DNA of 64,000 nucleotides from Escherichia coli (GTDB lineage: Bacteria > Pseudomonadota > Gammaproteobacteria > Enterobacterales > Enterobacteriaceae), in assembly GCF_013315695.1 (NCBI RefSeq), contig NZ_CP054353.1; one strand, given 5' to 3'. Position numbers and translations under genes: made by a program. The notes under the pieces are model-generated. The model did not search any database. It was not told the DNA's origin and was given only the letters and a program-made list of their open reading frames with translations. This document shows, one piece after another, positions 3,693 to 61,536 of the stretch; within the stretch, counting starts at the first letter, position 1, and the number at the start of each line of letters is the position of its first letter.

Positions 3693-4124
3693 ATGTTCCT
3701 GAAAACAGAACAATTTGAATATAACGGTGTATCCGTCACGCTTTCTGAGCTGTCTGCGCTGCAGCGTATTGAGCATCTTGCCCTCCTGAAACGGCGGGCA
3801 GAAGAGGCTGAAGCCAGCGGCAACCTGCAGGTGAGTGTGGAAGATCTTGTCAGAACCGGCGCGTTTCTGGTGGCGATGTCCCTGTGGCATAACCATCCAC
3901 AGAAAACGCAGTCACCGTCAATGAATGAGGCCGTGATGAAGATAGAGCAGGAAGTGCTCACCACCTGGCCTGCCGATGCCATTGCCCGGGCGGAAGACGT
4001 GGTGTTGTGCCTGTCCGGGATGATCGAAGCTGTTCGTCCGGATACTGATATTACTGAAGTGGCGAAAAATAACACGCTGACTGATGATGATTTTTCTGCG
4101 GGAAAGTCTTCGACGGCGAGCTGA
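3693..4124 (+). CDS. G: Tail assembly chaperone G
   Basis: 143 aa; MFLKTEQFEYNGVSVTLSELSALQRIEHL... matches lambda gpG. Confidence 0.85.
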   Translation: MFLKTEQFEYNGVSVTLSELSALQRIEHLALLKRRAEEAEASGNLQVSVEDLVRTGAFLVAMSLWHNHPQKTQSPSMNEAVMKIEQEVLTTWPADAIARAEDVVLCLSGMIEAVRPDTDITEVAKNNTLTDDDFSAGKSSTAS

Positions 4125-4564
4125 ACTTTGCCCTCAGACTGGCGCGTGAGATGGGGAGACCCGACTGGCGCGCCATGCTTGCCGGGATGACATCCACCGA
4201 ATATGCCGACTGGCACCGTTTTTACCGCACGCATTATTTTCAGGATACCCAGCTGGATATGCATTTTTCCGGGCTGACGTACGCTGTACTCAGCCTGTTT
4301 TTTTGCGATCCGGATATGCATCCCTCTGATTTCAGTCTGCTTGTCCCCCGGCATGAGGAAGAGCAGGTGGAGAGGCCGGATGAGGACAAAATGCTGATGC
4401 AGAAAGCGGCAGGACTTGCCGGAGGCGTCCGGTTCGGTGGGGACGGAGGGCGCGATATTTTATCGTCTGCGGATGTGGCGGATGTCATGGTGGATGATGC
4501 CGCATTAATGATGGCTTCAGCGGGGATTCCGGGAGGTGTGAGATATGTCCCAGCCGGTTGGTGA
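3693..4564 (+). CDS. T: Tail assembly chaperone G-T fusion (via -1 frameshift at 4100-4106)
   Basis: T-frame ORF 4151-4564 resembles lambda gpT and overlaps the start of H; geometry identical to the lambda G/GT system. Confidence 0.7.
4100..4106 (+). other. Programmed -1 ribosomal frameshift slippery heptamer GGGAAAG (G to G-T fusion)
   Basis: Heptamer is read GCG-GGA-AAG in the G frame (frame 0); the downstream T ORF is in the -1 frame (frame 2) and is open from this point. Confidence 0.75.
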
Positions 4565-7118
4565 TCTTGTTATTGACCTTAGTCTGGATGCTGTCCGTTT
4601 CGATGAGCAGATGAGCCGGGTAAGGCGTCATTTTTCAGGTCTGGATACCGACGCCAGAAAAACCGCCAGTGCTGTTGAACAGGGCCTGAGCCGCCAGGCG
4701 CTGGCTGCACAAAAAGCAGGGATTTCCGTCGGGCAGTATAAAGCGGCCATGCGAACCCTGCCCGCACAGTTTACGGATATCGCCACGCAGCTTGCCGGTG
4801 GTCAGAATCCCTGGCTGATCCTGCTGCAACAGGGCGGTCAGGTGAAGGACTCCTTCGGCGGGATGATCCCCATGTTCAGGGGGCTTGCCGGTGCGATCAC
4901 CCTGCCGATGGTCGGGGTCACCTCGCTGGCGGTGGCGACAGGTGCGCTGGTGTACGCCTGGTACCAGGGAGATTCCACGCTTTCAGCGTTTAATAAAACT
5001 CTGGTTCTTTCCGGTAATCAGTCCGGACTGACTGCCGATCGTATGCTGACTCTCTCAAGAGCCGGGCAGGCAGCAGGGCTGACGTTTAACCAGGCGAGAG
5101 AGTCACTGGCAGCCCTGGTGAATGCCGGTGTGCGTGGTGGTGAACAGTTTGATGCCATCAACCAGAGTGTCGCGCGTTTTGCGTCTGCATCCGGTGTGGA
5201 GGTGGATAAAGTCGCTGAAGCCTTCGGGAAGCTGACCACTGACCCGACGTCGGGACTGATGGCGATGGCGCGCCAGTTCCGTAACGTGACGGCAGAGCAG
5301 ATTGCGTATGTTGCACAGCTGCAGCGTTCCGGAGACGAGGCCGGGGCATTGCAGGCGGCGAACGATATCGCCACGAAAGGCTTTGATGAGCAGACCCGTC
5401 GCCTGAAAGAAAACATGGGAACACTGGAGACCTGGGCGGATAAAACAGGGAAGGCATTCAAATCGATGTGGGATGCCATTCTGGATATCGGTCGTCCGGA
5501 ATCCTCAGCGGATATGCTCGCCAGTGCGCAGAAGGCATTTGATGAGGCGGATAAAAAATGGCAGTGGTACCAGAGCCGGAGCCAGCGCCGGGGAAAGACC
5601 TCCTCTTTTCGTGCGAACCTTCAGGGGGCATGGGATGACCGGGAAAATGCCCGTCTGGGTCTGGCAGCGGCCACGCTGCAGTCGGATATGGAAAAAGCCG
5701 GTGAACTGGCGGCAAGGGACCGGGCTGAGCGTGAGGCGTCACAGCTGAAGTATACCGGAGAGGCGCAGAAGGCGTATGAGCGCCTGCAGACGCCGCTGGA
5801 TAAATATACCGCCCGTCAGAAAGAGCTGAATAAGGCCCTGAAAGACGGAAAAATCCTGCAGGCGGATTACAACACGCTGATGGCGTCGGCAAAAAAGGAT
5901 TATGAATCGACGCTGAAAAAGCCGTCAGGTGTGAAGGTGTCTGCCGGTGAGCGCCAGGAAGACCGGGCGCATGCAGCCATGCTGGCGCTTGAAACCGAGC
6001 TCAGGACGCTGGAAAAACACAGCGGTGTGAATGAGAAAATCAGCCAGCAGCGCCGGGATTTATGGGAAGCGGAAAATCAGTATGTGGTCCTGAAAGAGGC
6101 CGCCACGAAACGGCAGTTATCTGAGCAGGAAAAATCCCTGCTGGCCCATGAGAAAGAAACGCTGGAGTACAAACGCCAGCTGGCTGAGCTGGGCGACAAG
6201 ATAGAACACCAGAAGCGGCTGAATGAGCTGGCACAGCAGGCGGCGCGGTTTGAACAGCAGCAGAGCGCGAAGCAGGCGGCAATCAGCGCAAAAGCCCGCG
6301 GCCTCACTGACCGTCAGGCGCAGCGGGAGTCGGAAGAGCAGCGCCTTCGTGAGGTGTACGGTGATAATCCGGCTGCGCTGGCGAAGGCCACATCGGCACT
6401 GAAGAACACCTGGTCTGCGGAGGAGCAGCTTCGTGGAAGCTGGATGGCCGGGATGAAGTCCGGCTGGGGCGAGTGGGCGGAAAGTGCGACGGACAGTTTT
6501 TCGCAGGTTAAAAACGCGGCCACGCAGACCTTTGACGGTATTGCACAGAATATGGCGGCGATGCTGACCGGCAGTGAGCAGAACTGGCGTGGTTTCACCC
6601 GTTCCGTGCTCTCCATGCTGACAGAGATTTTTCTGAAGCAGGCAATGGTGGGGATTGTCGGAAGTATCGGCAGCGCCATTGGCGGGGCTGTTGGTGGTGG
6701 CGCATCCGCGTCAGGCGGTACAGCCATTCAGGCTGCGGCGGCGAACTTCCATTTTGCGACCGGAGGATTTACGGGAACCGGCGGCAAATATGAGCCAGCG
6801 GGGATTGTTCACCGTGGTGAATTTGTCTTCACGAAGGAGGCAACCAGCCGGATTGGTGTCGGCAACCTGTATCGTCTGATGCGCGGGTATGCGGAAGGTG
6901 GTTATGTCGGCGGTGCCGGAAGTCCGGCGCAGATGCGGCGGGCGGAAGGTATCCGGTTTGAGCAGAACAACAGCGTGGTGATTCAGAACGACGGTATCAA
7001 CGGACAGGCCGGGCCGCAGCTGATGAAAGCGGTGTATGAGATGGCCCGTAAAGGTGCGCAGGATGAGATTCAGGCGCAGATGCGTGATGGCGGCGTATTT
7101 TCCGGAGGCAGGCGATGA
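4545..7118 (+). CDS. H: Tail tape measure protein H
   Basis: 857 aa; colinear with lambda gpH over its full length (lambda H is about 853 aa). Confidence 0.95.
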   Translation: MSQPVGDLVIDLSLDAVRFDEQMSRVRRHFSGLDTDARKTASAVEQGLSRQALAAQKAGISVGQYKAAMRTLPAQFTDIATQLAGGQNPWLILLQQGGQVKDSFGGMIPMFRGLAGAITLPMVGVTSLAVATGALVYAWYQGDSTLSAFNKTLVLSGNQSGLTADRMLTLSRAGQAAGLTFNQARESLAALVNAGVRGGEQFDAINQSVARFASASGVEVDKVAEAFGKLTTDPTSGLMAMARQFRNVTAEQIAYVAQLQRSGDEAGALQAANDIATKGFDEQTRRLKENMGTLETWADKTGKAFKSMWDAILDIGRPESSADMLASAQKAFDEADKKWQWYQSRSQRRGKTSSFRANLQGAWDDRENARLGLAAATLQSDMEKAGELAARDRAEREASQLKYTGEAQKAYERLQTPLDKYTARQKELNKALKDGKILQADYNTLMASAKKDYESTLKKPSGVKVSAGERQEDRAHAAMLALETELRTLEKHSGVNEKISQQRRDLWEAENQYVVLKEAATKRQLSEQEKSLLAHEKETLEYKRQLAELGDKIEHQKRLNELAQQAARFEQQQSAKQAAISAKARGLTDRQAQRESEEQRLREVYGDNPAALAKATSALKNTWSAEEQLRGSWMAGMKSGWGEWAESATDSFSQVKNAATQTFDGIAQNMAAMLTGSEQNWRGFTRSVLSMLTEIFLKQAMVGIVGSIGSAIGGAVGGGASASGGTAIQAAAANFHFATGGFTGTGGKYEPAGIVHRGEFVFTKEATSRIGVGNLYRLMRGYAEGGYVGGAGSPAQMRRAEGIRFEQNNSVVIQNDGINGQAGPQLMKAVYEMARKGAQDEIQAQMRDGGVFSGGRR

Positions 7119-55521: not shown

Positions 55522-55772
55522 TGAAAGAATACCGCTATTCCGGCCCGGCCAGCGGCGTCACGCTGTCGGACGGAACCGAAATCCTGCTCTGGCCGGGGAA
55601 GACGGTTTCCCTGCCGGAGGAGCATGACTACGTGAAGGTACTGGTGGCGCTGAAACATCTGACGCCGGTACCTGAAGAGACTAAACCCGCCGGCACACCG
55701 GCTGTGCAGTCACCAAAGCGCAGAAGCAGCAGTGACAGCGAAGTGAAAACGGAGGACACCCATGGCAGCTAA
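55518..55772 (+). CDS. Small protein (Mu gp38 position)
   Basis: 84 aa, ATGA-coupled. Confidence 0.5.
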   Translation: MMKEYRYSGPASGVTLSDGTEILLWPGKTVSLPEEHDYVKVLVALKHLTPVPEETKPAGTPAVQSPKRRSSSDSEVKTEDTHGS

Positions 55773-57189
55773 CTATCTGCATGGTCCCGAAACCATTGAG
55801 GTGGAAAACGGTGCCCGCCCGGTTAAAACGGTGAAATCTGCCGTTATTGGCCTGATTGGTACCGCCCCGATGGGGGATGTCAATACGCTGGTACAGTGCC
55901 TGTCTGAGAAAGACGCAGCGGCATTTGGCAGCCAGTTCACCGGCTTTACCATTCCGCAGGCGCTGGATGCGATTTATGACCATGGTGCAGGTATCGTTCT
56001 GGTCATTAACGTCCTCGACCCGGCGAAACATAAAACGGCGATCGAGGATGAGGTGGTTACCTTTGACAAATCGACAGGGCAGGCCAGACTGGCGCATCCG
56101 GTTGTCGCTAATGTGGTGGTGAAAAACAGTGAAGGCAGCACCTCCCACACGGCGAACACGGACTACCGTGTTGATGCGCAGGCGGGTGTGCTCACGAACC
56201 TGGGCAAGGCTATTGAGGCCGGTGGCAGCGTGAAGGTGAGCTATGAGTACGCGGACCCGTCGAAGGTGACTGCGGCGGACATCATCGGCGGGGTGAACAG
56301 CGCCGGAAACCGAACCGGCATGAAGCTGCTTAACGACAGCTTCAACCTGTACGGCTATTTCGCCAAAATTCTGATTGCGCCGGTGTTCTGCACCCAGAAG
56401 AGTGTCGCAGTTGAGCTTATCGCCATGGCAGAGAAGCTGGGCGCGGTAACCTACATTGATGCGCCTGTCGGTACCACCTTTGCACAGGCTCTGGCAGGTC
56501 GTGGCCCGGAAGGCACCATCAACTTCAATACCAGCTCCGACCGCGTCCGTCTGTGCTATCCGCATGTGAAGGTATATGACCCGGTGACAAACACAGAGCG
56601 TCTGGAGCCGCTCAGCCAGCGTGCAGCAGGTCTGCGTGCCAGAGTCGATCTGGACAAGGGCTACTGGTGGTCATCCTCCAATCAGGAGATTCTGGGGATC
56701 ACTGGCGTGGAGCGCCAGCTGTCCGCGATGATTGATGACCCGCAGAGTGAGGTGAACCTGCTTAACGAACAGGGGATCACCACGGTATTCAGCAGTTACG
56801 GCAGCGGCCTTCGTCTGTGGGGTAACCGGACGGCAGCATGGCCAACGGTCACCCATATGCGTAACTTTGAGAACGTTCGCCGCACCGGTGATGTGATCAA
56901 CGAGTCCATTCGTTATTTCAGCCAGCAGTACATCGACATGCCGATTACTCAGGCGCTGATTGATGCACTGACGGAGTCGGTCAACGCCTACGGTCGCAAA
57001 ATGACTGGTGATGGTGCGGTACTGGGCTTCCGTTGCTGGTTTGATCCGGCCCGCAATCCGGAGACGGAGCTGGCCGCCGGGCACCTGTTGCTGAGCTACA
57101 AATATACGCCACCACCGCCGCTGGAGCGACTGACGTTTGAGACTGAGATCACCTCGGAATACCTGTTAACCCTGAAAGGGGGCAACTGA
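55762..57189 (+). CDS. Contractile tail sheath protein (Mu L family)
   Basis: 475 aa; similarity to Mu/P2-type sheath proteins. Confidence 0.9.
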   Translation: MAANYLHGPETIEVENGARPVKTVKSAVIGLIGTAPMGDVNTLVQCLSEKDAAAFGSQFTGFTIPQALDAIYDHGAGIVLVINVLDPAKHKTAIEDEVVTFDKSTGQARLAHPVVANVVVKNSEGSTSHTANTDYRVDAQAGVLTNLGKAIEAGGSVKVSYEYADPSKVTAADIIGGVNSAGNRTGMKLLNDSFNLYGYFAKILIAPVFCTQKSVAVELIAMAEKLGAVTYIDAPVGTTFAQALAGRGPEGTINFNTSSDRVRLCYPHVKVYDPVTNTERLEPLSQRAAGLRARVDLDKGYWWSSSNQEILGITGVERQLSAMIDDPQSEVNLLNEQGITTVFSSYGSGLRLWGNRTAAWPTVTHMRNFENVRRTGDVINESIRYFSQQYIDMPITQALIDALTESVNAYGRKMTGDGAVLGFRCWFDPARNPETELAAGHLLLSYKYTPPPPLERLTFETEITSEYLLTLKGGN

Positions 57190-57710
57190 TGTCAAAGATT
57201 GAGATAAACCGCATCACGAATGCCAACATCTATCTGGATGGTACTAACCTGCTGGGACGGGCTGAGGAAGTTAAACTCCCCGATGTCTCCATGATTATGC
57301 AGGAACACAAGGCGCTGGGGATGGTGGGTAAGGTGGAACTCCCGGCTGGTTTTGACAAACTGGAAGGCGAAATCAAATGGAACAGCTTTTACCGCGATGC
57401 GATGCTGTCTGCCGCGAACCCGTACAGGTCGCTGGCACTGCAGTGTCGTTCCAGCGTCCAGCGCTACAGCTCGCAGGGGCTGATTGACGAAATCCCGCTG
57501 GTCACCTTCCTGACGATTATGTTCAAGAAGAACCCGCTGGGGACGTTCAAACAGCACGAGAACGCCGAGTTCTCCAGTAGCTTCACCTGCACGTATATCA
57601 GACAGGTACTGGATGGTGAAGAGCTGCTGCAACTGGACTATCTGGCCAACATCTTCCGGGTCGGCGGTGTTGATCAACTGACTGACTACCGTATCAATAT
57701 CGGGGGCTGA
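57189..57710 (+). CDS. Tail tube protein (Mu M family)
   Basis: 173 aa; position after sheath. Confidence 0.85.
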   Translation: MSKIEINRITNANIYLDGTNLLGRAEEVKLPDVSMIMQEHKALGMVGKVELPAGFDKLEGEIKWNSFYRDAMLSAANPYRSLALQCRSSVQRYSSQGLIDEIPLVTFLTIMFKKNPLGTFKQHENAEFSSSFTCTYIRQVLDGEELLQLDYLANIFRVGGVDQLTDYRINIGG

Positions 57711-57712
57711 CG

Positions 57713-57994
57713 GTGAGTGTTGAACTGACGGATAAAGGAGGACGATGTGCGGCACTGGGCATGTCAAATGGTACGTGGTTTACCCTCCTTGATATTCCGG
57801 GGGTGGAAACCCTTTTTAATACCCGTAAAACCAATGACCCGATTGACTGCACACGTTCAAAGGCCCGCAAACTGGCGGATTTGATTGAAGCATGGGAGCC
57901 TCCCGACCACTGGTTCTCCGGCATCGGCAAATCTGAGGGAAAGACGCTTCTCATCGCTTTCCTGCGTAACTGCAAGGGGTTTCGCACTTGCTGA
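57713..57994 (+). CDS. Hypothetical protein (93 aa, GTG start)
   Basis: ORF between tube and tail chaperone genes. Confidence 0.35.
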   Translation: MSVELTDKGGRCAALGMSNGTWFTLLDIPGVETLFNTRKTNDPIDCTRSKARKLADLIEAWEPPDHWFSGIGKSEGKTLLIAFLRNCKGFRTC

Positions 57995-58091
57995 CATCAC
58001 AGGGGCTCCGGCCCCTTCTTCTTAATCTCCTTTAATATCCGTCACGCGCTTCTCCCGACATACTGCCCTGAACTTACACAGGAGCACAATC

Positions 58092-58427
58092 ATGTCACAG
58101 ACCCCATCCGATACTTTTAAATTGTCTTATCCCTTCACCACTGCTGCAGGCACCAGAATTGAGCTGGTTGAACTGAAACGCCTGACGGTAAAAGACCTGA
58201 AGCAGGTGCGCAAAATCAGCAAAAACCCGGCAGACTGGGACGAACCGCTGATTGCCCGCAGTACTGGTCTTCTCCCGGAAGATCTCGACAATATGGATCT
58301 GGCTGATTACCTGCAGTTACAGAAACGATTTCAGCTCATCACGGGGATGGGTGAGAGCAACCAGGGCGCTGACGCAGGCGCAGGGGCTGCTGGCGAGATG
58401 GTTCCGGTTTCAGCCGGGGGAGATTGA
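58092..58427 (+). CDS. Tail assembly chaperone (Mu gp41 / lambda G analogue)
   Basis: 111 aa directly upstream of tape measure gene. Confidence 0.7.
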   Translation: MSQTPSDTFKLSYPFTTAAGTRIELVELKRLTVKDLKQVRKISKNPADWDEPLIARSTGLLPEDLDNMDLADYLQLQKRFQLITGMGESNQGADAGAGAAGEMVPVSAGGD

Positions 58428-58509
58428 TGCCCTCGATACTGACGATCTGGAGATGTGGCTGGAGCAGGCTGAAGAGCAAATAAAAAGCGAGTACGGCGAC
58501 AAATCATAG
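58252..58509 (+). other. Overlapping +1-frame ORF: likely C-terminal extension of the tail chaperone produced by programmed frameshift
   Basis: Frame +1 relative to chaperone, open across its stop (58425-58427) to 58509; G-rich run GCCGGGGGAGATTGA at the end of frame 0. Confidence 0.5.
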
Positions 58510-58584
58510 TACAGACAGCCGCCAGTAGCGGCTGTTCTGCGTTATTCCCTCACGTCTTTTCACCTTCCCCGGAGGTTAACCACT

Positions 58585-61536
58585 ATGTCGGGACAGTTTT
58601 CAGTCGGCGTTGTTATCGGCGGGATGATTGGCAGCACATTCCGTTCTGCAATGAGCGGTACCCGCCGTGCGCTTGATTCCCTGAGCGATACCTCACGCCG
58701 CCTGCAGGAACGTCAGAACGCTTTAACCCGTGCAACAGAACGTTATGGTCAACTGGGTTCTTCCCGGATGCAGCATCTCAACAGCGAGCTGCTGCGGGTA
58801 AGCCGCACCATGGAGCAAATTGAGCGCCAGCAGCGCCGTCTGTCAGCGGCATCCGCTACCAGTGATGCGCTGAAAGCTAACCGCATGGCGCTGTATGGTC
58901 AGGGGATTGAAGCGTATGGCATGGCACAGACTGTTTATCATACGGTTTCCCCTGCCGTTCAGCAGTCCATGTCTTTTCAGGACAAAATGATTGATATGTC
59001 GATCACCGCAAAATATGACAATAAAACGCGGGATGCACTTGCCGGACAGATAAAAGGCTGGGCGCTTAAATACAATCAGTATCAGGATGAGCTGCAGGAG
59101 GCGGTGGGTTCACTCATCAGCGACAATATTGATAATGTGTCAGATATCGGTTTTCTGATGCCGGATATTGCCCGCGCGGCAACGGCAACACGCACGTCTG
59201 CTCAGGACTGGGCAAAAGTGGCCGCAGTCTGGCAAAACTCCCTGAAAGGTGCGGCCAGAGATTTTGGTGCCGTTCAGAATATTATGGCTTATGCCGGTGA
59301 CCAGGGGTCATTTGAAATCCCGGATCAGGTCAAGTGGATGCAGTCCCTGGCCCCAATGATGGCGGGTATTGCCAGTGGAAAAGAGGCTGTTGCTGAAATC
59401 GGGGCCAGTCTCCAGATAGCAAAAATCGGTGCAGGTTCCACCGACGAAGCAGCTAATAATTTTAAAAACTTTCTTACCAAAATTTTTGCCCGCGATACTC
59501 AGAAACAGTTTGCTGATCTGGGTATTGATTTGCAGGGATCTATTGCGAGTTATAAAGCTGCGGGGATCTCTCCGATTGAAGGGATGTTGAGTGTTATAGA
59601 ACGTTACCTCAATGCCAAAAGCCCCGAAGCGCTGGCCGGCTTCAAATCAGCCATGAAAATAAAGAATGATACGGCAAGAGATGAGGCACTTCAGGCTCTG
59701 GCGAAAAACTTTGGTCTGGGCGATATGTTCGCGGATATGCAGGTCATGGCATTTATCCGCCCGATGCTGGCCAACATGGACAGATATCGAGAGATCCGTG
59801 CCGGTGCTCTCAGGGCTGCGGATAACGATTTGCTTGCCAGTGCTTATGATCAGCGGCTGAAATCTCCCCTTGAAGCCACTAAAACACTTATGGTCAGCAG
59901 TCGCGATCTGGCAATTACGCTGGGCGATCAATTAGCTCCATCTTTTATTTCTTTGACTCAGGAACTGCTTCCACTCATTCAGGGGGCAAAACACTGGGTA
60001 GCGACTCACCCGCAATTTGTCAGTGGGGCTTTTAAGCTCATCAGTGCGCTCCTTGCGATTAAGATAGCGACTGTTGGTCTCAAACTGGGGCTGAATCTCC
60101 TTATTTCCCCCTTTGTAAGTGTCTGGAAAAATGCTGTTTTACTTCGGGCCAACTGGCTTCGTCTGTCGCTCGCACTGGGGCAAGGCGGTAAGCTCCGCTG
60201 GCTGGTGACCGGATTTAGCGCCGTCGCCAGAGGAGCCAGAACACTGAGTGGCGTGCTCTCCGGGGGGCTGGTTCGCGGAATTATGCTCGCCGGACGTGCT
60301 GTTCTCTGGATTGGACGTGCGCTGATGATGAATCCCATCGGTCTCGTTATCACCGCTGTCGCGGCAGCAGCTTACCTTATCTACCGCAACTGGGGGGCAG
60401 TCAGTGGCTGGTTTAAACAGCGCTGGGCAGACATTCAGGAAGCCTTTAACGGCGGCATTGTGGGAATTGGTAAGTTACTGATTAACTGGTCGCCGGCAGG
60501 CCTGCTCTATAAAGCCTTTGCGGCTGCGCTGAAATATTTCGGCGTTGCTCTGCCGGCAAAGTTCACCGACTTCGGTGGCCATCTTATCGACGGTCTGATT
60601 AACGGTATCAAAAACAAATGGGGGTCGCTCAAATCCAGTGTAACCGGAATGGGTGACAGCATCAGTAGCTGGTTTAAACAGTGCTGGGCTGACATTCAGG
60701 AAGCCTTTAACGGCGGTATCGCGGGAACTGGTAAGCTGCTGATTAACTGGTCGCCGGCAGGTCTGCTCTATAAAGCCTTTGCAGCTGCGCTGAAATATCT
60801 TGGTGTTGATCTGCCGGCAAAGTTCACCGACTTCGGTGGCCATCTTGTCGACGGTCTGATTAACGGTATCAAAAACAAATGGGAGTCGCTCAAATCCAGT
60901 GTAACCGGAATGGGTGACAGCATCAGTGGCTGGTTCAGCGAAAAGCTGGGCATTCATTCGCCGAGCCGCGTGTTTATGGGCTTTGGTGACAATATCGCGC
61001 AGGGGGCCGCCATTGGCCTGCAGCGGACCACTCCGCTTGCAGCTCTGGCCGGGCAGCGAATGGCCAGTGAACTGCTCCCCAAAATGCCCGTGAGCATTCA
61101 GGGGCCAGAAATACGGGATAACACTTCAGGTGTTCGCTTCAGTATGCCGTTGCCCGATATCAATGGGTTTATGTCGTCTGCTAAAAATGCGATCGGAGCC
61201 GTAATCAATAGTTTGTCTTCCATGCCCGCTATCCCGCTCTCCACCCGGGCATCGATTTTACCAGGGCAACGTCTGGCAAATGAGATGACACCGGATGTTC
61301 CCCGTATCCCCTCGCCTGAAATCATGGCTGCCGGATATTCAGGCCGTGGTGCAGCTGCAACCGGCGGTGGAACGTCTGGTGGTATCCAGGTCAGCTTTAA
61401 TCCTCAGTTTTTCCTCAATGGCAGGGAAACCACAGCGCCTGCAGGACTGACTGGTGCCCTGAATATGAGTCTGCATGAGCTGGAAAAAATGCTGGAGCGT
61501 CTGCTGGCTCAGAAACAACGTAAGGAGTACCGCTGA
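58585..61536 (+). CDS. Tail tape measure protein
   Basis: 983 aa; long helical protein with hydrophobic central segments between chaperone and baseplate genes. Confidence 0.9.
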   Translation: MSGQFSVGVVIGGMIGSTFRSAMSGTRRALDSLSDTSRRLQERQNALTRATERYGQLGSSRMQHLNSELLRVSRTMEQIERQQRRLSAASATSDALKANRMALYGQGIEAYGMAQTVYHTVSPAVQQSMSFQDKMIDMSITAKYDNKTRDALAGQIKGWALKYNQYQDELQEAVGSLISDNIDNVSDIGFLMPDIARAATATRTSAQDWAKVAAVWQNSLKGAARDFGAVQNIMAYAGDQGSFEIPDQVKWMQSLAPMMAGIASGKEAVAEIGASLQIAKIGAGSTDEAANNFKNFLTKIFARDTQKQFADLGIDLQGSIASYKAAGISPIEGMLSVIERYLNAKSPEALAGFKSAMKIKNDTARDEALQALAKNFGLGDMFADMQVMAFIRPMLANMDRYREIRAGALRAADNDLLASAYDQRLKSPLEATKTLMVSSRDLAITLGDQLAPSFISLTQELLPLIQGAKHWVATHPQFVSGAFKLISALLAIKIATVGLKLGLNLLISPFVSVWKNAVLLRANWLRLSLALGQGGKLRWLVTGFSAVARGARTLSGVLSGGLVRGIMLAGRAVLWIGRALMMNPIGLVITAVAAAAYLIYRNWGAVSGWFKQRWADIQEAFNGGIVGIGKLLINWSPAGLLYKAFAAALKYFGVALPAKFTDFGGHLIDGLINGIKNKWGSLKSSVTGMGDSISSWFKQCWADIQEAFNGGIAGTGKLLINWSPAGLLYKAFAAALKYLGVDLPAKFTDFGGHLVDGLINGIKNKWESLKSSVTGMGDSISGWFSEKLGIHSPSRVFMGFGDNIAQGAAIGLQRTTPLAALAGQRMASELLPKMPVSIQGPEIRDNTSGVRFSMPLPDINGFMSSAKNAIGAVINSLSSMPAIPLSTRASILPGQRLANEMTPDVPRIPSPEIMAAGYSGRGAAATGGGTSGGIQVSFNPQFFLNGRETTAPAGLTGALNMSLHELEKMLERLLAQKQRKEYR
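60408..60929 (+). repeat. Tandem direct duplication (2 x 261 bp, about 95 percent identical) inside the tape measure gene
   Basis: Unit WFKQ(R/C)WADIQEAFNGGI(V/A)G(I/T)GKLLINWSPAGLLYKAFAAALKY... repeated in frame; second copy begins near 60669. Confidence 0.85.

What the first reader, a model, noticed from the sequence alone, without database searches (positions are those of the whole stretch)
58092..58509. Tail-chaperone pair upstream of the Mu-like tape measure requires a +1 (or -2) frameshift, not the lambda-type -1
The chaperone ORF (frame 0) ends at 58427; a second ORF open to 58509 is in frame +1 relative to it and overlaps it. A G-rich run (GCC GGG GGA GAT TGA) sits right at the end of frame 0 and could be the shift site. 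Conserved chaperone frameshifting is well known, but the direction here differs from the lambda G/GT site in this same window (4100-4106, GGGAAAG, -1).
Basis: partly seen in the sequence, partly recalled or inferred. Interest (0 to 1): 0.35.

Follow-up and report, generated by a model that had tools for sequence, protein, structure and literature searches.

The report
Tail-chaperone +1 frameshift, site relocated

Summary
The geometry is real. A 111-aa chaperone ORF (58092-58427, PF10109) is overlapped by a +1-frame ORF open to 58509, just upstream of the tape-measure gene of a BcepMu-like prophage with a P2-type tail module. The +1 ORF encodes a P2 E'-like domain. All 116 distinct homologues examined, from enteric, Ralstonia, Burkholderia and Pseudomonas hosts, have it in the +1 frame.

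The proposed shift site, GCC_GGG_GGA at 58413-58421, is not supported:
- The G-run is present in only 34 of 116 sequences. It is simply Pro-Gly-Glu codons of the +1 frame.
- 34 of 116 homologues end frame 0 upstream of it. One 90-aa variant is found on 914 contigs.
- Substitutions switch to +1-frame periodicity at a conserved Trp codon (58348-58350).

Frame-specific stop codons in homologues confine the shift to about 58323-58360. The only invariant element there is UUU_C, which is CGA_UUU_C at 58326-58332 in 100 of 113 sequences. UUU_Y is a known +1-prone site, and the BcepMu version, UCC_UUU_CGC, resembles the influenza PA-X cassette. The -1 relatives P2 and L161 carry a U-rich heptamer ending within about three residues of this Phe codon.

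The predicted product is join(58092..58331,58333..58509), 138 aa. This is a new, unannotated member of a known kind, untested experimentally.

The parts
58092..58427 (+). Frame-0 tail assembly chaperone ORF (gpE-like short product, 111 aa)
   Evidence: ORF list. PF10109 Phage_TAC_7, E = 5.5e-21, residues 8-81. phrog_166 'tail protein', 2.8e-32. RefSeq calls it 'phage tail assembly protein'.
58113..58334 (+). PF10109 (Phage_TAC_7) domain, ending at the conserved Arg-Phe
   Evidence: Substitutions here fall at frame-0 third positions: sums 256/160/651 for codon positions 1/2/3.
58326..58332 (+). Proposed +1 shift cassette CGA_UUU_C (Phe codon 58329-58331; tRNA-Phe re-pairs on UUC 58330-58332)
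   Evidence: TTT followed by C in 113 of 113 homology-selected distinct sequences; preceded by CGA in 100 and by TCC/GCC/TCT/GTG in the rest. No variation at any of these positions in the 36-sequence alignment, while neighbouring synonymous sites vary freely. Bracketed by a +1-frame stop 3 codons upstream in the Ralstonia clade and by frame-0 stops 8-10 codons downstream in some loci.
58333..58509 (+). +1-frame extension (58 aa, SSSRGW...GDKS, stop TAG 58507-58509). Fusion = join(58092..58331,58333..58509), 138 aa
   Evidence: Translation. phrog_8286, 1e-20. Same frame in all homologues.
58348..58350 (+). Invariant +1-frame Trp codon; the +1-frame selection signature is clear from here on
   Evidence: Zero variation in 36 sequences. 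Trp is kept in the enteric, Ralstonia, BcepMu and Pseudomonas clades. Phase sums after it are 182/45/57.
58390..58488 (+). E'-like domain (LARWFRFQPGEIDALDTDDLEMWLEQAEEQIKS), read in the +1 frame
   Evidence: PF06528 Phage_P2_GpE positions 4-36 of 37, 15.8-18.4 bits, below the 23-bit gathering cut-off. BLASTP E = 3e-10 to the Pasteurella AFS-2018a extension, which scores 52 bits on PF06528. Aligns with P2 E'.
58413..58421 (+).
   Evidence: see the interpretation section.
58515..58535 (+). Stable hairpin (8-bp stem, 5-nt loop) between the end of the extension and the tape-measure start. No U-tract; role unknown
   Evidence: MFE -18.1 kcal/mol, z = -4.1. Not called as a terminator by the consensus scan.
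58585..61536 (+). Tape measure protein (983 aa), the presumed client of the chaperone
   Evidence: PF10145. 31% identity, E = 4e-95 to BcepMu gp44. No significant similarity to the Mu tape measure.

Best explanation
This is the gpE / gpE+E' type tail-assembly-chaperone pair of a BcepMu-like prophage with a P2-type tail module.

Most ribosomes read frame 0 and make the 111-aa chaperone. A minority shift +1 at CGA_UUU_C (58326-58332). With UUU in the P site, peptidyl-tRNA-Phe (anticodon GAA) slips one base forward onto UUC, which is a better match. Translation then continues with AGC at 58333 and produces a 138-aa fusion. The fusion consists of the PF10109 chaperone domain (80 aa), a 16-19-residue linker and a P2 E'-like domain.

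By analogy with lambda G/GT and P2 E/E+E', the shared N-terminal part would coat the tape measure and the extension would recruit tube subunits. The fixed low shift rate would set the ratio of the two forms.

Shown here: the frame relation, the homology of both parts, where +1-frame selection begins, and the invariance of UUU_C. Inferred: that the shift is ribosomal, that it is +1 rather than -2, that it occurs at UUU_C, and the functional roles. The invariant rare CGA codon may act as an E-site stimulator through its weak I:A wobble; this is speculative.
For: (1) Homology. The N-terminal part matches PF10109 at 5.5e-21. The extension aligns over the whole E' domain with P2 and Pasteurella, with BLASTP E = 3e-10.

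(2) All 116 distinct homologues from four host clades place the extension in the +1 frame.

(3) Substitution periodicity switches from frame-0 third positions (256/160/651) to +1-frame third positions (182/45/57) at the conserved Trp codon 58348.

(4) Bracketing. In the Ralstonia clade a +1-frame stop lies 3 codons before TTC. In Pseudomonas phage Komp_PAO1 it lies about 4 codons before. Some loci have frame-0 stops 8-10 codons after TTT (L074/L075 '...RFQAMLSMAA*'), and a 90-aa form occurs on 914 contigs.

(5) Inside that bracket only UUU_C is invariant: 113 of 113 have TTT plus C, never TTC. This holds even in GC-rich Burkholderia and Ralstonia. CGA is invariant in 100, although another Arg codon in the same gene varies freely (CGC 58, CGT 40, CGG 3, CGA 2) and CGA is the rarest Arg codon in this module (7 of 173).

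(6) UUU_Ynn is a documented +1-prone tetranucleotide in bacteria, and the influenza PA-X cassette is UCC_UUU_CGU (review PMC5009743). The BcepMu clade has UCC/GCC/UCU_UUU_CGY.

(7) Two -1 relatives carry a U-rich heptamer at the end of the PF10109 domain: P2 T_TTT_TTG and L161 T_TTT_TTC. In P2 the Phe codon lies within 3 residues of the one here. The spacing from the shift site to the E' domain is 16 residues here and 18 in P2.

(8) No start codon is conserved in the +1 ORF. GTG 58351 is GCG or GCA in many homologues.
Against: - No experimental data. Neither the fusion protein nor the shift efficiency has been measured.
- UUU_C is short. It occurs in frame 7 more times in the other genes of this tail module, so it cannot be a sufficient signal by itself.
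- No stimulatory RNA structure was found downstream (z = -0.35), and no Shine-Dalgarno-like element was seen by eye upstream.
- The +1-frame residues between Phe and Trp are poorly conserved. Comparative data alone therefore cannot exclude a lineage-specific site a few codons downstream, such as GGG_A at 58344-58347 in this window.
- The invariance of CGA could in principle reflect something other than an E-site effect.
- The PF06528 match of this extension is below Pfam's gathering score.
Confidence: 0.68

Rival explanations
1. One reading: the shift (-2, or +1) occurs on the G5 run GCC_GGG_GGA at 58413-58421, just before the frame-0 stop, as at Mu's CGG_GGG_CGA.
For: A run of five G allows tRNA-Gly to re-pair after a -2 shift (GGA to GGG) or a +1 shift (GGG to GGG). 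Mu's experimentally verified -2 site is also a G5 run. A low level of slippage here in this particular phage cannot be excluded.
Against: - The G-run is present in only 34 of 116 homologues and is explained by +1-frame Pro-Gly-Glu codons.
- 34 of 116 homologues stop frame 0 upstream of it, including the 104-aa '...GEVV*' forms and the 90-aa form on 914 contigs.
- +1-frame selection starts about 65 nt upstream.
- The product would lack the conserved LARWFRFQP part of the E' domain.
Confidence: 0.07
2. A lineage-specific +1 shift occurs a few codons downstream of UUU_C, at ACG_GGG_A (58341-58347). tRNA-Gly slips from GGG to GGA just before the conserved Trp codon.
For: The change of substitution periodicity falls exactly here. 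58343 varies as a frame-0 third position and 58347 as a +1-frame third position. GGG_A permits re-pairing by tRNA-Gly(UCC).
Against: The motif is not conserved. Other clades have AGC_A, ACC_G, GGT_A, TTC_G or AGC_A at this place. That would require a different site in every clade, whereas UUU_C is universal. Continued frame-0 constraint downstream of the true site is expected anyway, because most ribosomes stay in frame 0.
Confidence: 0.1
3. The downstream ORF is translated independently, for example from GTG 58351 preceded by GGGGA. It yields a free E'-like peptide of about 52 aa rather than a fusion.
For: Gene callers have called such small ORFs: phrog_8286 is a 54-position family matching the extension. 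BcepMu gp42 is annotated as a separate gene.
Against: No start codon is conserved. 58351-58353 is GCG or GCA in many homologues, and Salmonella, Ralstonia and BcepMu relatives have no start there. +1-frame conservation (Leu-x-Trp) extends upstream of that codon. In P2 the homologous domain is made as a fusion (GenBank annotation).
Confidence: 0.04
4. No programmed event occurs. The overlap is a decayed or accidental ORF, or the shift is made at the RNA level by polymerase slippage.
For: Databases contain fused 138-aa ORFs with junctions at various places, which shows that indels arise here in assemblies.
Against: The +1 ORF is intact, in the same frame and under purifying selection in 116 distinct sequences from four host groups. 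The fused database ORFs have scattered junctions typical of homopolymer or assembly indels. T3 and G5 runs are too short for efficient transcriptional slippage (general knowledge).
Confidence: 0.03

Closest known systems
Phage P2 gpE / gpE+E' (essential tail chaperone pair)
   Same: - Same position in the same gene order: sheath FI, tube FII, E, T, U, (X), D.
- Same N-terminal family, PF10109.
- Homologous C-terminal extension (PF06528 region).
- Shift site at the C-terminal edge of the chaperone domain, on a Phe codon.
- Similar linker length between site and E' domain.
   Different: P2 shifts -1 on the heptamer T_TTT_TTG. Here the extension is in the +1 frame and the conserved element is the tetranucleotide UUU_C. 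The extension here scores below the PF06528 gathering cut-off.
Phage Mu gp41 / gp41-extension (verified -2 frameshift at CGG_GGG_CGA; Xu, Hendrix & Duda 2004, as noted in GenBank AF083977)
   Same: A tail chaperone upstream of the tape measure whose long form lies in the +1/-2 frame. Weak PF10109 relationship.
   Different: - Mu gp41 belongs to PF23746 (Gp41_Mu). The protein here does not match it.
- Mu's extension and tape measure are unrelated to those here.
- Mu's G-run site has no conserved counterpart here.
- -2 re-pairing is not possible at UUU_C.
Lambda gpG / gpGT (-1 at G_GGA_AAG), also present at 4100-4106 of this window
   Same: Same logic: two chaperone forms in a fixed ratio set by a low-efficiency frameshift between the tail tube gene and the tape-measure gene (review PMC5009743).
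   Different: Opposite direction, unrelated protein families, and siphovirus versus contractile tail. A relative of the chaperone studied here, Pasteurella phage AFS-2018a, does use G_GGA_AAG and -1.
UUU_Ynn +1 shift-prone sites (E. coli argI error site, Yersinia YopN-TyeA) and the influenza A PA-X cassette UCC_UUU_CGU
   Same: In-frame UUU followed by a pyrimidine, with +1 re-pairing of tRNA-Phe on UUC, low efficiency and no obvious RNA stimulator. The BcepMu-clade cassette UCC_UUU_CGC differs from the influenza one by one base.
   Different: Different genes and hosts. The predominant 5' codon here is CGA rather than UCC. Nothing has been measured for this site.
Burkholderia phage BcepMu gp41-gp43 as annotated in AY539836
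   Same: Orthologous locus. gp41 is the PF10109 chaperone, and gp42 is the E'-like ORF in the +1 frame of gp41.
   Different: The record treats gp42/gp43 as the G/T-like pair joined by slippage in the -1 direction. Homology instead pairs gp41 with gp42 through a +1 shift. The gp43 region overlaps a small membrane-protein ORF on the opposite strand.

Membership tests
Frameshifted tail assembly chaperone pair (lambda G/GT paradigm, Xu et al. 2004) | Two overlapping ORFs located between the major tail/tube gene and the tape-measure gene | tested here: met
   Tube 57189-57710, chaperone 58092-58427, overlapping ORF to 58509, tape measure 58585-61536.
Frameshifted tail assembly chaperone pair (lambda G/GT paradigm, Xu et al. 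2004) | Second ORF has no conserved start of its own and is conserved in a fixed alternative frame | tested here: met
   +1 frame in 116 of 116 distinct homologues. Candidate starts are not conserved.
Frameshifted tail assembly chaperone pair (lambda G/GT paradigm, Xu et al. 2004) | Conserved slippery sequence in the overlap | tested here: met
   UUU_C is invariant in 113 of 113 and lies in the overlap. It is of the +1 type, not the -1 heptamer.
Frameshifted tail assembly chaperone pair (lambda G/GT paradigm, Xu et al. 2004) | Fusion protein actually produced at a low fixed ratio and required for tail assembly | not testable with these tools
   Needs mass spectrometry, reporter assays and genetics.
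P2 gpE / gpE+E' | N-terminal PF10109 (Phage_TAC_7) domain | tested here: met
   74.8 bits, E = 5.5e-21, above the 25-bit cut-off. P2 gpE scores 47.8 bits.
P2 gpE / gpE+E' | C-terminal extension belonging to PF06528 (Phage_P2_GpE) | tested here: inconclusive
   15.8-18.4 bits against a 23-bit cut-off, but the match covers profile positions 4-36 of 37. BLASTP E = 3e-10 to the Pasteurella extension, which scores 52 bits.
P2 gpE / gpE+E' | -1 shift on T_TTT_TTG | tested here: not met
   The extension is in the +1 frame and there is no U-rich heptamer.
P2 gpE / gpE+E' | P2 tail gene order FI-FII-E-T-U-D | tested here: met
   Pfam Phage_sheath_1, Phage_tube, TAC_7, PhageMin_Tail and Phage_P2_GpU in that order. 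PhiKM is annotated GpFI, FII, E, U, X, D.
Mu gp41 -2 frameshift | Chaperone of family PF23746 (Gp41_Mu) | tested here: not met
   The window protein hits only PF10109. Mu gp41 hits PF23746 at 9e-35.
Mu gp41 -2 frameshift | Conserved G-run permitting -2 re-pairing, located upstream of the translated extension | tested here: not met
   The G5 run is present in 34 of 116 homologues and lies downstream of where +1-frame selection begins.
Mu gp41 -2 frameshift | Mu-type tape measure downstream | tested here: not met
   BLASTP E = 0.6 against Mu gp42; E = 4e-95 against BcepMu gp44.
UUU_Ynn +1 shift sites | In-frame UUU followed by a pyrimidine, with an open +1 frame beyond it | tested here: met
   CGA_UUU_CAG at 58326-58334. 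The +1 frame is open to 58509.
UUU_Ynn +1 shift sites | Measured +1 frameshifting at the site | not testable with these tools
   Needs reporter or mass-spectrometry data.

The most novel reading that the evidence does not exclude
CGA_UUU_C would be a dedicated, widely conserved bacterial +1 programmed-frameshift cassette. The rare CGA codon, read through an inosine:A wobble, would act from the E site to release tRNA-Phe for a UUU-to-UUC slip, as a prokaryotic counterpart of the influenza UCC_UUU_CGU cassette. P2-type tail chaperones would have switched repeatedly between -1 heptamers and this +1 tetranucleotide at or near the same Phe codon while keeping the same two protein products.
Probability: 0.3. 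Interest if true: 0.45.

Novelty: new member of a known kind. Interest (0 to 1): 0.3.

Why it matters
- Annotation. The long chaperone form is missing from RefSeq and GenBank records of this prophage, which is present in 640 of 5426 complete E. coli genomes. The BcepMu reference record appears to pair the wrong ORFs. A defined join, join(58092..58331,58333..58509), would correct a recurrent omission.
- Mechanism. The locus offers a natural, deeply conserved UUU_C +1 site with an invariant 5' CGA codon. It could be used to test E-site effects on +1 frameshifting in bacteria.
- Evolution. One homologous chaperone family uses -1 in P2, Pasteurella and L161, and +1 here and in BcepMu, Ralstonia and Pseudomonas relatives.

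None of this overturns current understanding. Use of -1, -2 or +1 in tail chaperone genes is already documented (PMC5009743).

Tried and rejected
- G-run as the shift site: rejected.
It lies elsewhere, upstream of LLARWF, and is not kept in the Ralstonia clade.
- Downstream stimulatory RNA structure: the 120 nt after the site fold no better than shuffles (z = -0.35). RNAalifold on 18 representatives gave only a weak long-range pairing of CGAUUUC with GAGAUUG (58420-58426). AUA and other variants break it, and +1-frame Glu-Ile codons explain it.
- Independent initiation at GTG 58351 or ATG 58453: these starts are not conserved.
- Database 'natural fusions': seven 138-aa proteins exist, but their junctions are scattered. 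One has a one-G loss in the G5 run and another a deletion at GESNQ|ALTQ. They come mostly from read-assembly sources, so they are treated as indels and are not informative about the ribosomal site.
- My first tally of codon invariance selected loci by the motif itself and was therefore circular. It was redone with homology-based selection.
- The search for related loci with the six-clade alignment failed for lack of a conserved stretch.
- Literature: no paper in the held library mentions CGAUUUC with frameshifting, or BcepMu with E+E'. Xu et al. 2004 is not held.
- The metagenome and genome-wide scans were not run. The four viral-contig scans already gave four clades.

Full report
**What is there.** Window 55.7-63.8 kb carries a contractile-tail module:
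- sheath, 55762-57189
- tube, 57189-57710
- a 93-aa ORF of unknown function, 57713-57994
- a 111-aa ORF, 58092-58427
- a 983-aa tape measure, 58585-61536
- gpU-, gpX- and gpD-like genes

The closest phage record is Escherichia phage PhiKM (99.7% identity), classified in Bcepmuvirus, with the genes labelled GpFI, FII, E, U, X and D. The 111-aa protein is a PF10109 'Phage_TAC_7' tail assembly chaperone (E = 5.5e-21). The tape measure matches BcepMu gp44 (E = 4e-95) and does not match the Mu tape measure (E = 0.6). 'Mu-like' is therefore accurate only in the BcepMu sense; the tail genes are P2-type.

**Checking the observation.** The frame arithmetic is correct. 58092 is in phase 0 and the ORF open from 58252 to 58509 is in phase 1, that is +1 or -2. 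GCC GGG GGA GAT TGA is at 58413-58427. The lambda-type G_GGA_AAG at 4100-4106 is also present, and its -1 frame reads a gpT-like sequence.

The +1 ORF is a real coding region.
- Its C-terminal 33 residues align with nearly the whole PF06528 (P2 GpE/E') profile, although below the gathering score (15.8-18.4 bits against 23).
- It matches phrog_8286 at 1e-20.
- It gives BLASTP E = 3e-10 against the extension of Pasteurella phage AFS-2018a, which is a clear PF06528 member at 52 bits.
- A multiple alignment with P2 E+E' shows the shared motif ...W/F-x-x-x-P-S-E-I/L...L-x-x-W-L/R-E-x-A.

**Where the shift happens.** I collected 53 close loci, 80 loci of a Salmonella/Klebsiella-type clade, 16 of a Ralstonia clade and 13 of the BcepMu clade. 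I added the GenBank phages. After removing duplicates, 116 distinct sequences remain, and all have the extension in the +1 frame.

(i) *Frame-0 stops.* In 34 of 116 sequences frame 0 ends before the position of the G-run. Examples are the 104-aa forms '...AAGEVV*', '...RFQAMLSMAA*' in L074/L075, and a 90-aa form '...GMGESN*' found on 914 contigs.

(ii) *The G-run itself.* It is present in only 34 of 116 sequences. It is the +1-frame codon string CCG GGG GAG (Pro-Gly-Glu) and reads CCG AGT GAG where Gly is replaced by Ser.

(iii) *Substitution periodicity.* In a 36-sequence alignment, variation falls on frame-0 third positions through the chaperone domain. The sums for codon positions 1/2/3 are 256/160/651. 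From 58347 on, variation falls on frame-0 first positions, which are +1-frame third positions (182/45/57). The switch occurs at an invariant +1-frame Trp codon, TGG 58348-58350.

*Lower bound.* The whole Ralstonia clade has a +1-frame TGA three codons before the conserved TTC. Pseudomonas phage Komp_PAO1 has one about four codons before.

Assuming the site is positionally homologous across clades, it lies between about 58323 and 58360.

**The candidate site.** Within that bracket the only nucleotides conserved in all clades are TTT followed by C.
- With sequences selected by protein homology rather than by motif, 113 of 113 have TTT (never TTC) followed by C.
- 100 have CGA_TTT_C. The BcepMu clade has TCC/GCC/TCT_TTT_CG, and Komp_PAO1 has GTG_TTT_CGG.
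- Other two-fold degenerate codons in the same gene vary roughly 40:60. Another conserved Arg codon uses CGC, CGT, CGG and CGA. CGA is the rarest Arg codon of this module, 7 of 173.
- The codon 5' of CGA is variable (AAA, ACA, ACC, AAG, GCC, GAA and others), so the shift cannot be placed further upstream on a conserved slippery codon.

UUU_Ynn is documented as especially prone to +1 frameshifting in bacteria, even without a stop codon. It is thought to be the Yersinia YopN-TyeA site, and the minimal influenza PA-X cassette is UCC_UUU_CGU (review PMC5009743). The BcepMu cassette UCC_UUU_CGC differs from it by one base.

The mechanism is simple. tRNA-Phe (anticodon GAA) pairs better with UUC than with UUU, so a one-base forward slip is favoured. 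A -2 slip from UUU would land on GAU or CCU and cannot re-pair. That is why I favour +1 over -2 here, unlike Mu, whose verified -2 site is CGG_GGG_CGA.

Two -1-frame relatives carry their heptamers at the same edge of the chaperone domain: P2 T_TTT_TTG (annotated site) and L161 T_TTT_TTC. The P2 Phe codon lies within three residues of the one here. The E' domain starts 18 residues after the P2 site and 16 after UUU_C here. A third relative, Pasteurella AFS-2018a, uses the lambda-type G_GGA_AAG.

**Predicted products.** The short form is 58092-58427 (111 aa). The long form is join(58092..58331,58333..58509), that is ...LQLQKRF + SSSRGWVRATRALTQAQGLLARWFRFQPGEIDALDTDDLEMWLEQAEEQIKSEYGDKS, 138 aa. 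By analogy with lambda G/GT and P2 E/E+E' (established knowledge; PMC5009743), the common part would bind the tape measure and the extension would engage tube protein, with the ratio fixed by shift efficiency.

**Weak points.**
- Nothing here is experimental.
- UUU_C occurs in frame seven more times in the other genes of the module, so context must matter or a low basal rate suffices.
- I found no downstream structure (z = -0.35) and no Shine-Dalgarno-like stimulator.
- The proposed E-site role of CGA rests on my recollection of E-site effects in RF2 frameshifting, and of Schwartz & Curran 1997 on UUU-pyrimidine sites. I could not retrieve either source.
- The five +1-frame residues between Phe and Trp are poorly conserved. 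A lineage-specific site such as GGG_A (58344-58347) therefore cannot be excluded from sequence alone.

**Known or new.** Use of -1, -2 or +1 frameshifting by tail chaperone genes of different phages is established (PMC5009743; KS10 paper PMC2628397). UUU_Y is a known +1 site. What appears undescribed is this specific case.
- RefSeq annotates only the short protein in the 640 of 5426 complete E. coli genomes that carry the locus.
- PhiKM annotates only 'tail protein E'.
- The BcepMu record pairs gp42 with gp43 by -1 slippage instead of gp41 with gp42 by +1.
- Searches of the held literature found nothing on this cassette.

I therefore rate it a new member of a known kind. Its interest is modest: mainly an annotation correction plus a clean natural test case for +1 frameshifting.

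Noticed in passing
window 60401-60935: The tape-measure gene contains a tandem duplication of 261 bp (87 aa), 2.0 copies, 93% identical. Tape-measure length sets tail length, so this copy would lengthen the tail. The PhiKM record has a sequencing gap at this place.
   Followed up: partly
window 58515-58535: A stable hairpin (8-bp stem, -18.1 kcal/mol, z = -4.1) lies immediately after the stop of the +1 extension and 50 nt before the tape-measure start. It has no U-tract, so it is not a classic terminator. Possible roles are mRNA processing or stability, or translational coupling control.
   Followed up: partly
window 58001-58016: A terminator-like GC-rich hairpin followed by a T-rich tail lies between the 93-aa ORF and the chaperone gene, inside what should be one late operon.
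   Followed up: no
window 57713-57994: A 93-aa ORF (phrog_1239, 4.7e-48; sub-threshold DUF7739) is inserted between the tube and chaperone genes. It is present in the E. coli and Klebsiella relatives and absent at this position in Salmonella SARB27, BcepMu and P2.
   Followed up: partly
L010 (BcepMu AY539836) 4835-5364; also L003 about 1890-2040 and L004 about 1900-2160: BcepMu gp42 is the E'-like ORF in the +1 frame of gp41. The annotated gp43 'slippage product' overlaps a small membrane-protein ORF on the opposite strand (MNIQSIAEGITYTVIAIAGVV...). A similar reverse-strand membrane ORF sits between the chaperone and the tape measure in the Ralstonia and Pasteurella phages but not in this window.
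   Followed up: partly
window 4100-4106 and 4100-4399: A lambda-type G_GGA_AAG slippery heptamer lies at the end of a gpG-like ORF. The -1 frame reads a gpT-like peptide (GKVFDGELNFALRLAREMGRPDWRAML...). This is a second, canonical chaperone frameshift in the same window, belonging to a different prophage.
   Followed up: partly
proteins P0001-P0011 (database), equivalent to window 58092-58509: Public protein sets contain single-ORF 138-aa 'fusions' of the two frames with junctions at different places. Several have lost one G from the G5 run at 58416-58420. They are most likely assembly or homopolymer indels, and they could mislead anyone inferring the shift site from them.
   Followed up: yes
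window 58326-58332 and 58420-58426: RNAalifold pairs the shift cassette CGAUUUC with GAGAUUG about 90 nt downstream in most homologues. Some variants (AUA, CUU) break the pairing, and the 3' arm is the conserved Glu-Ile of the +1 frame. It is probably coincidental.
   Followed up: partly
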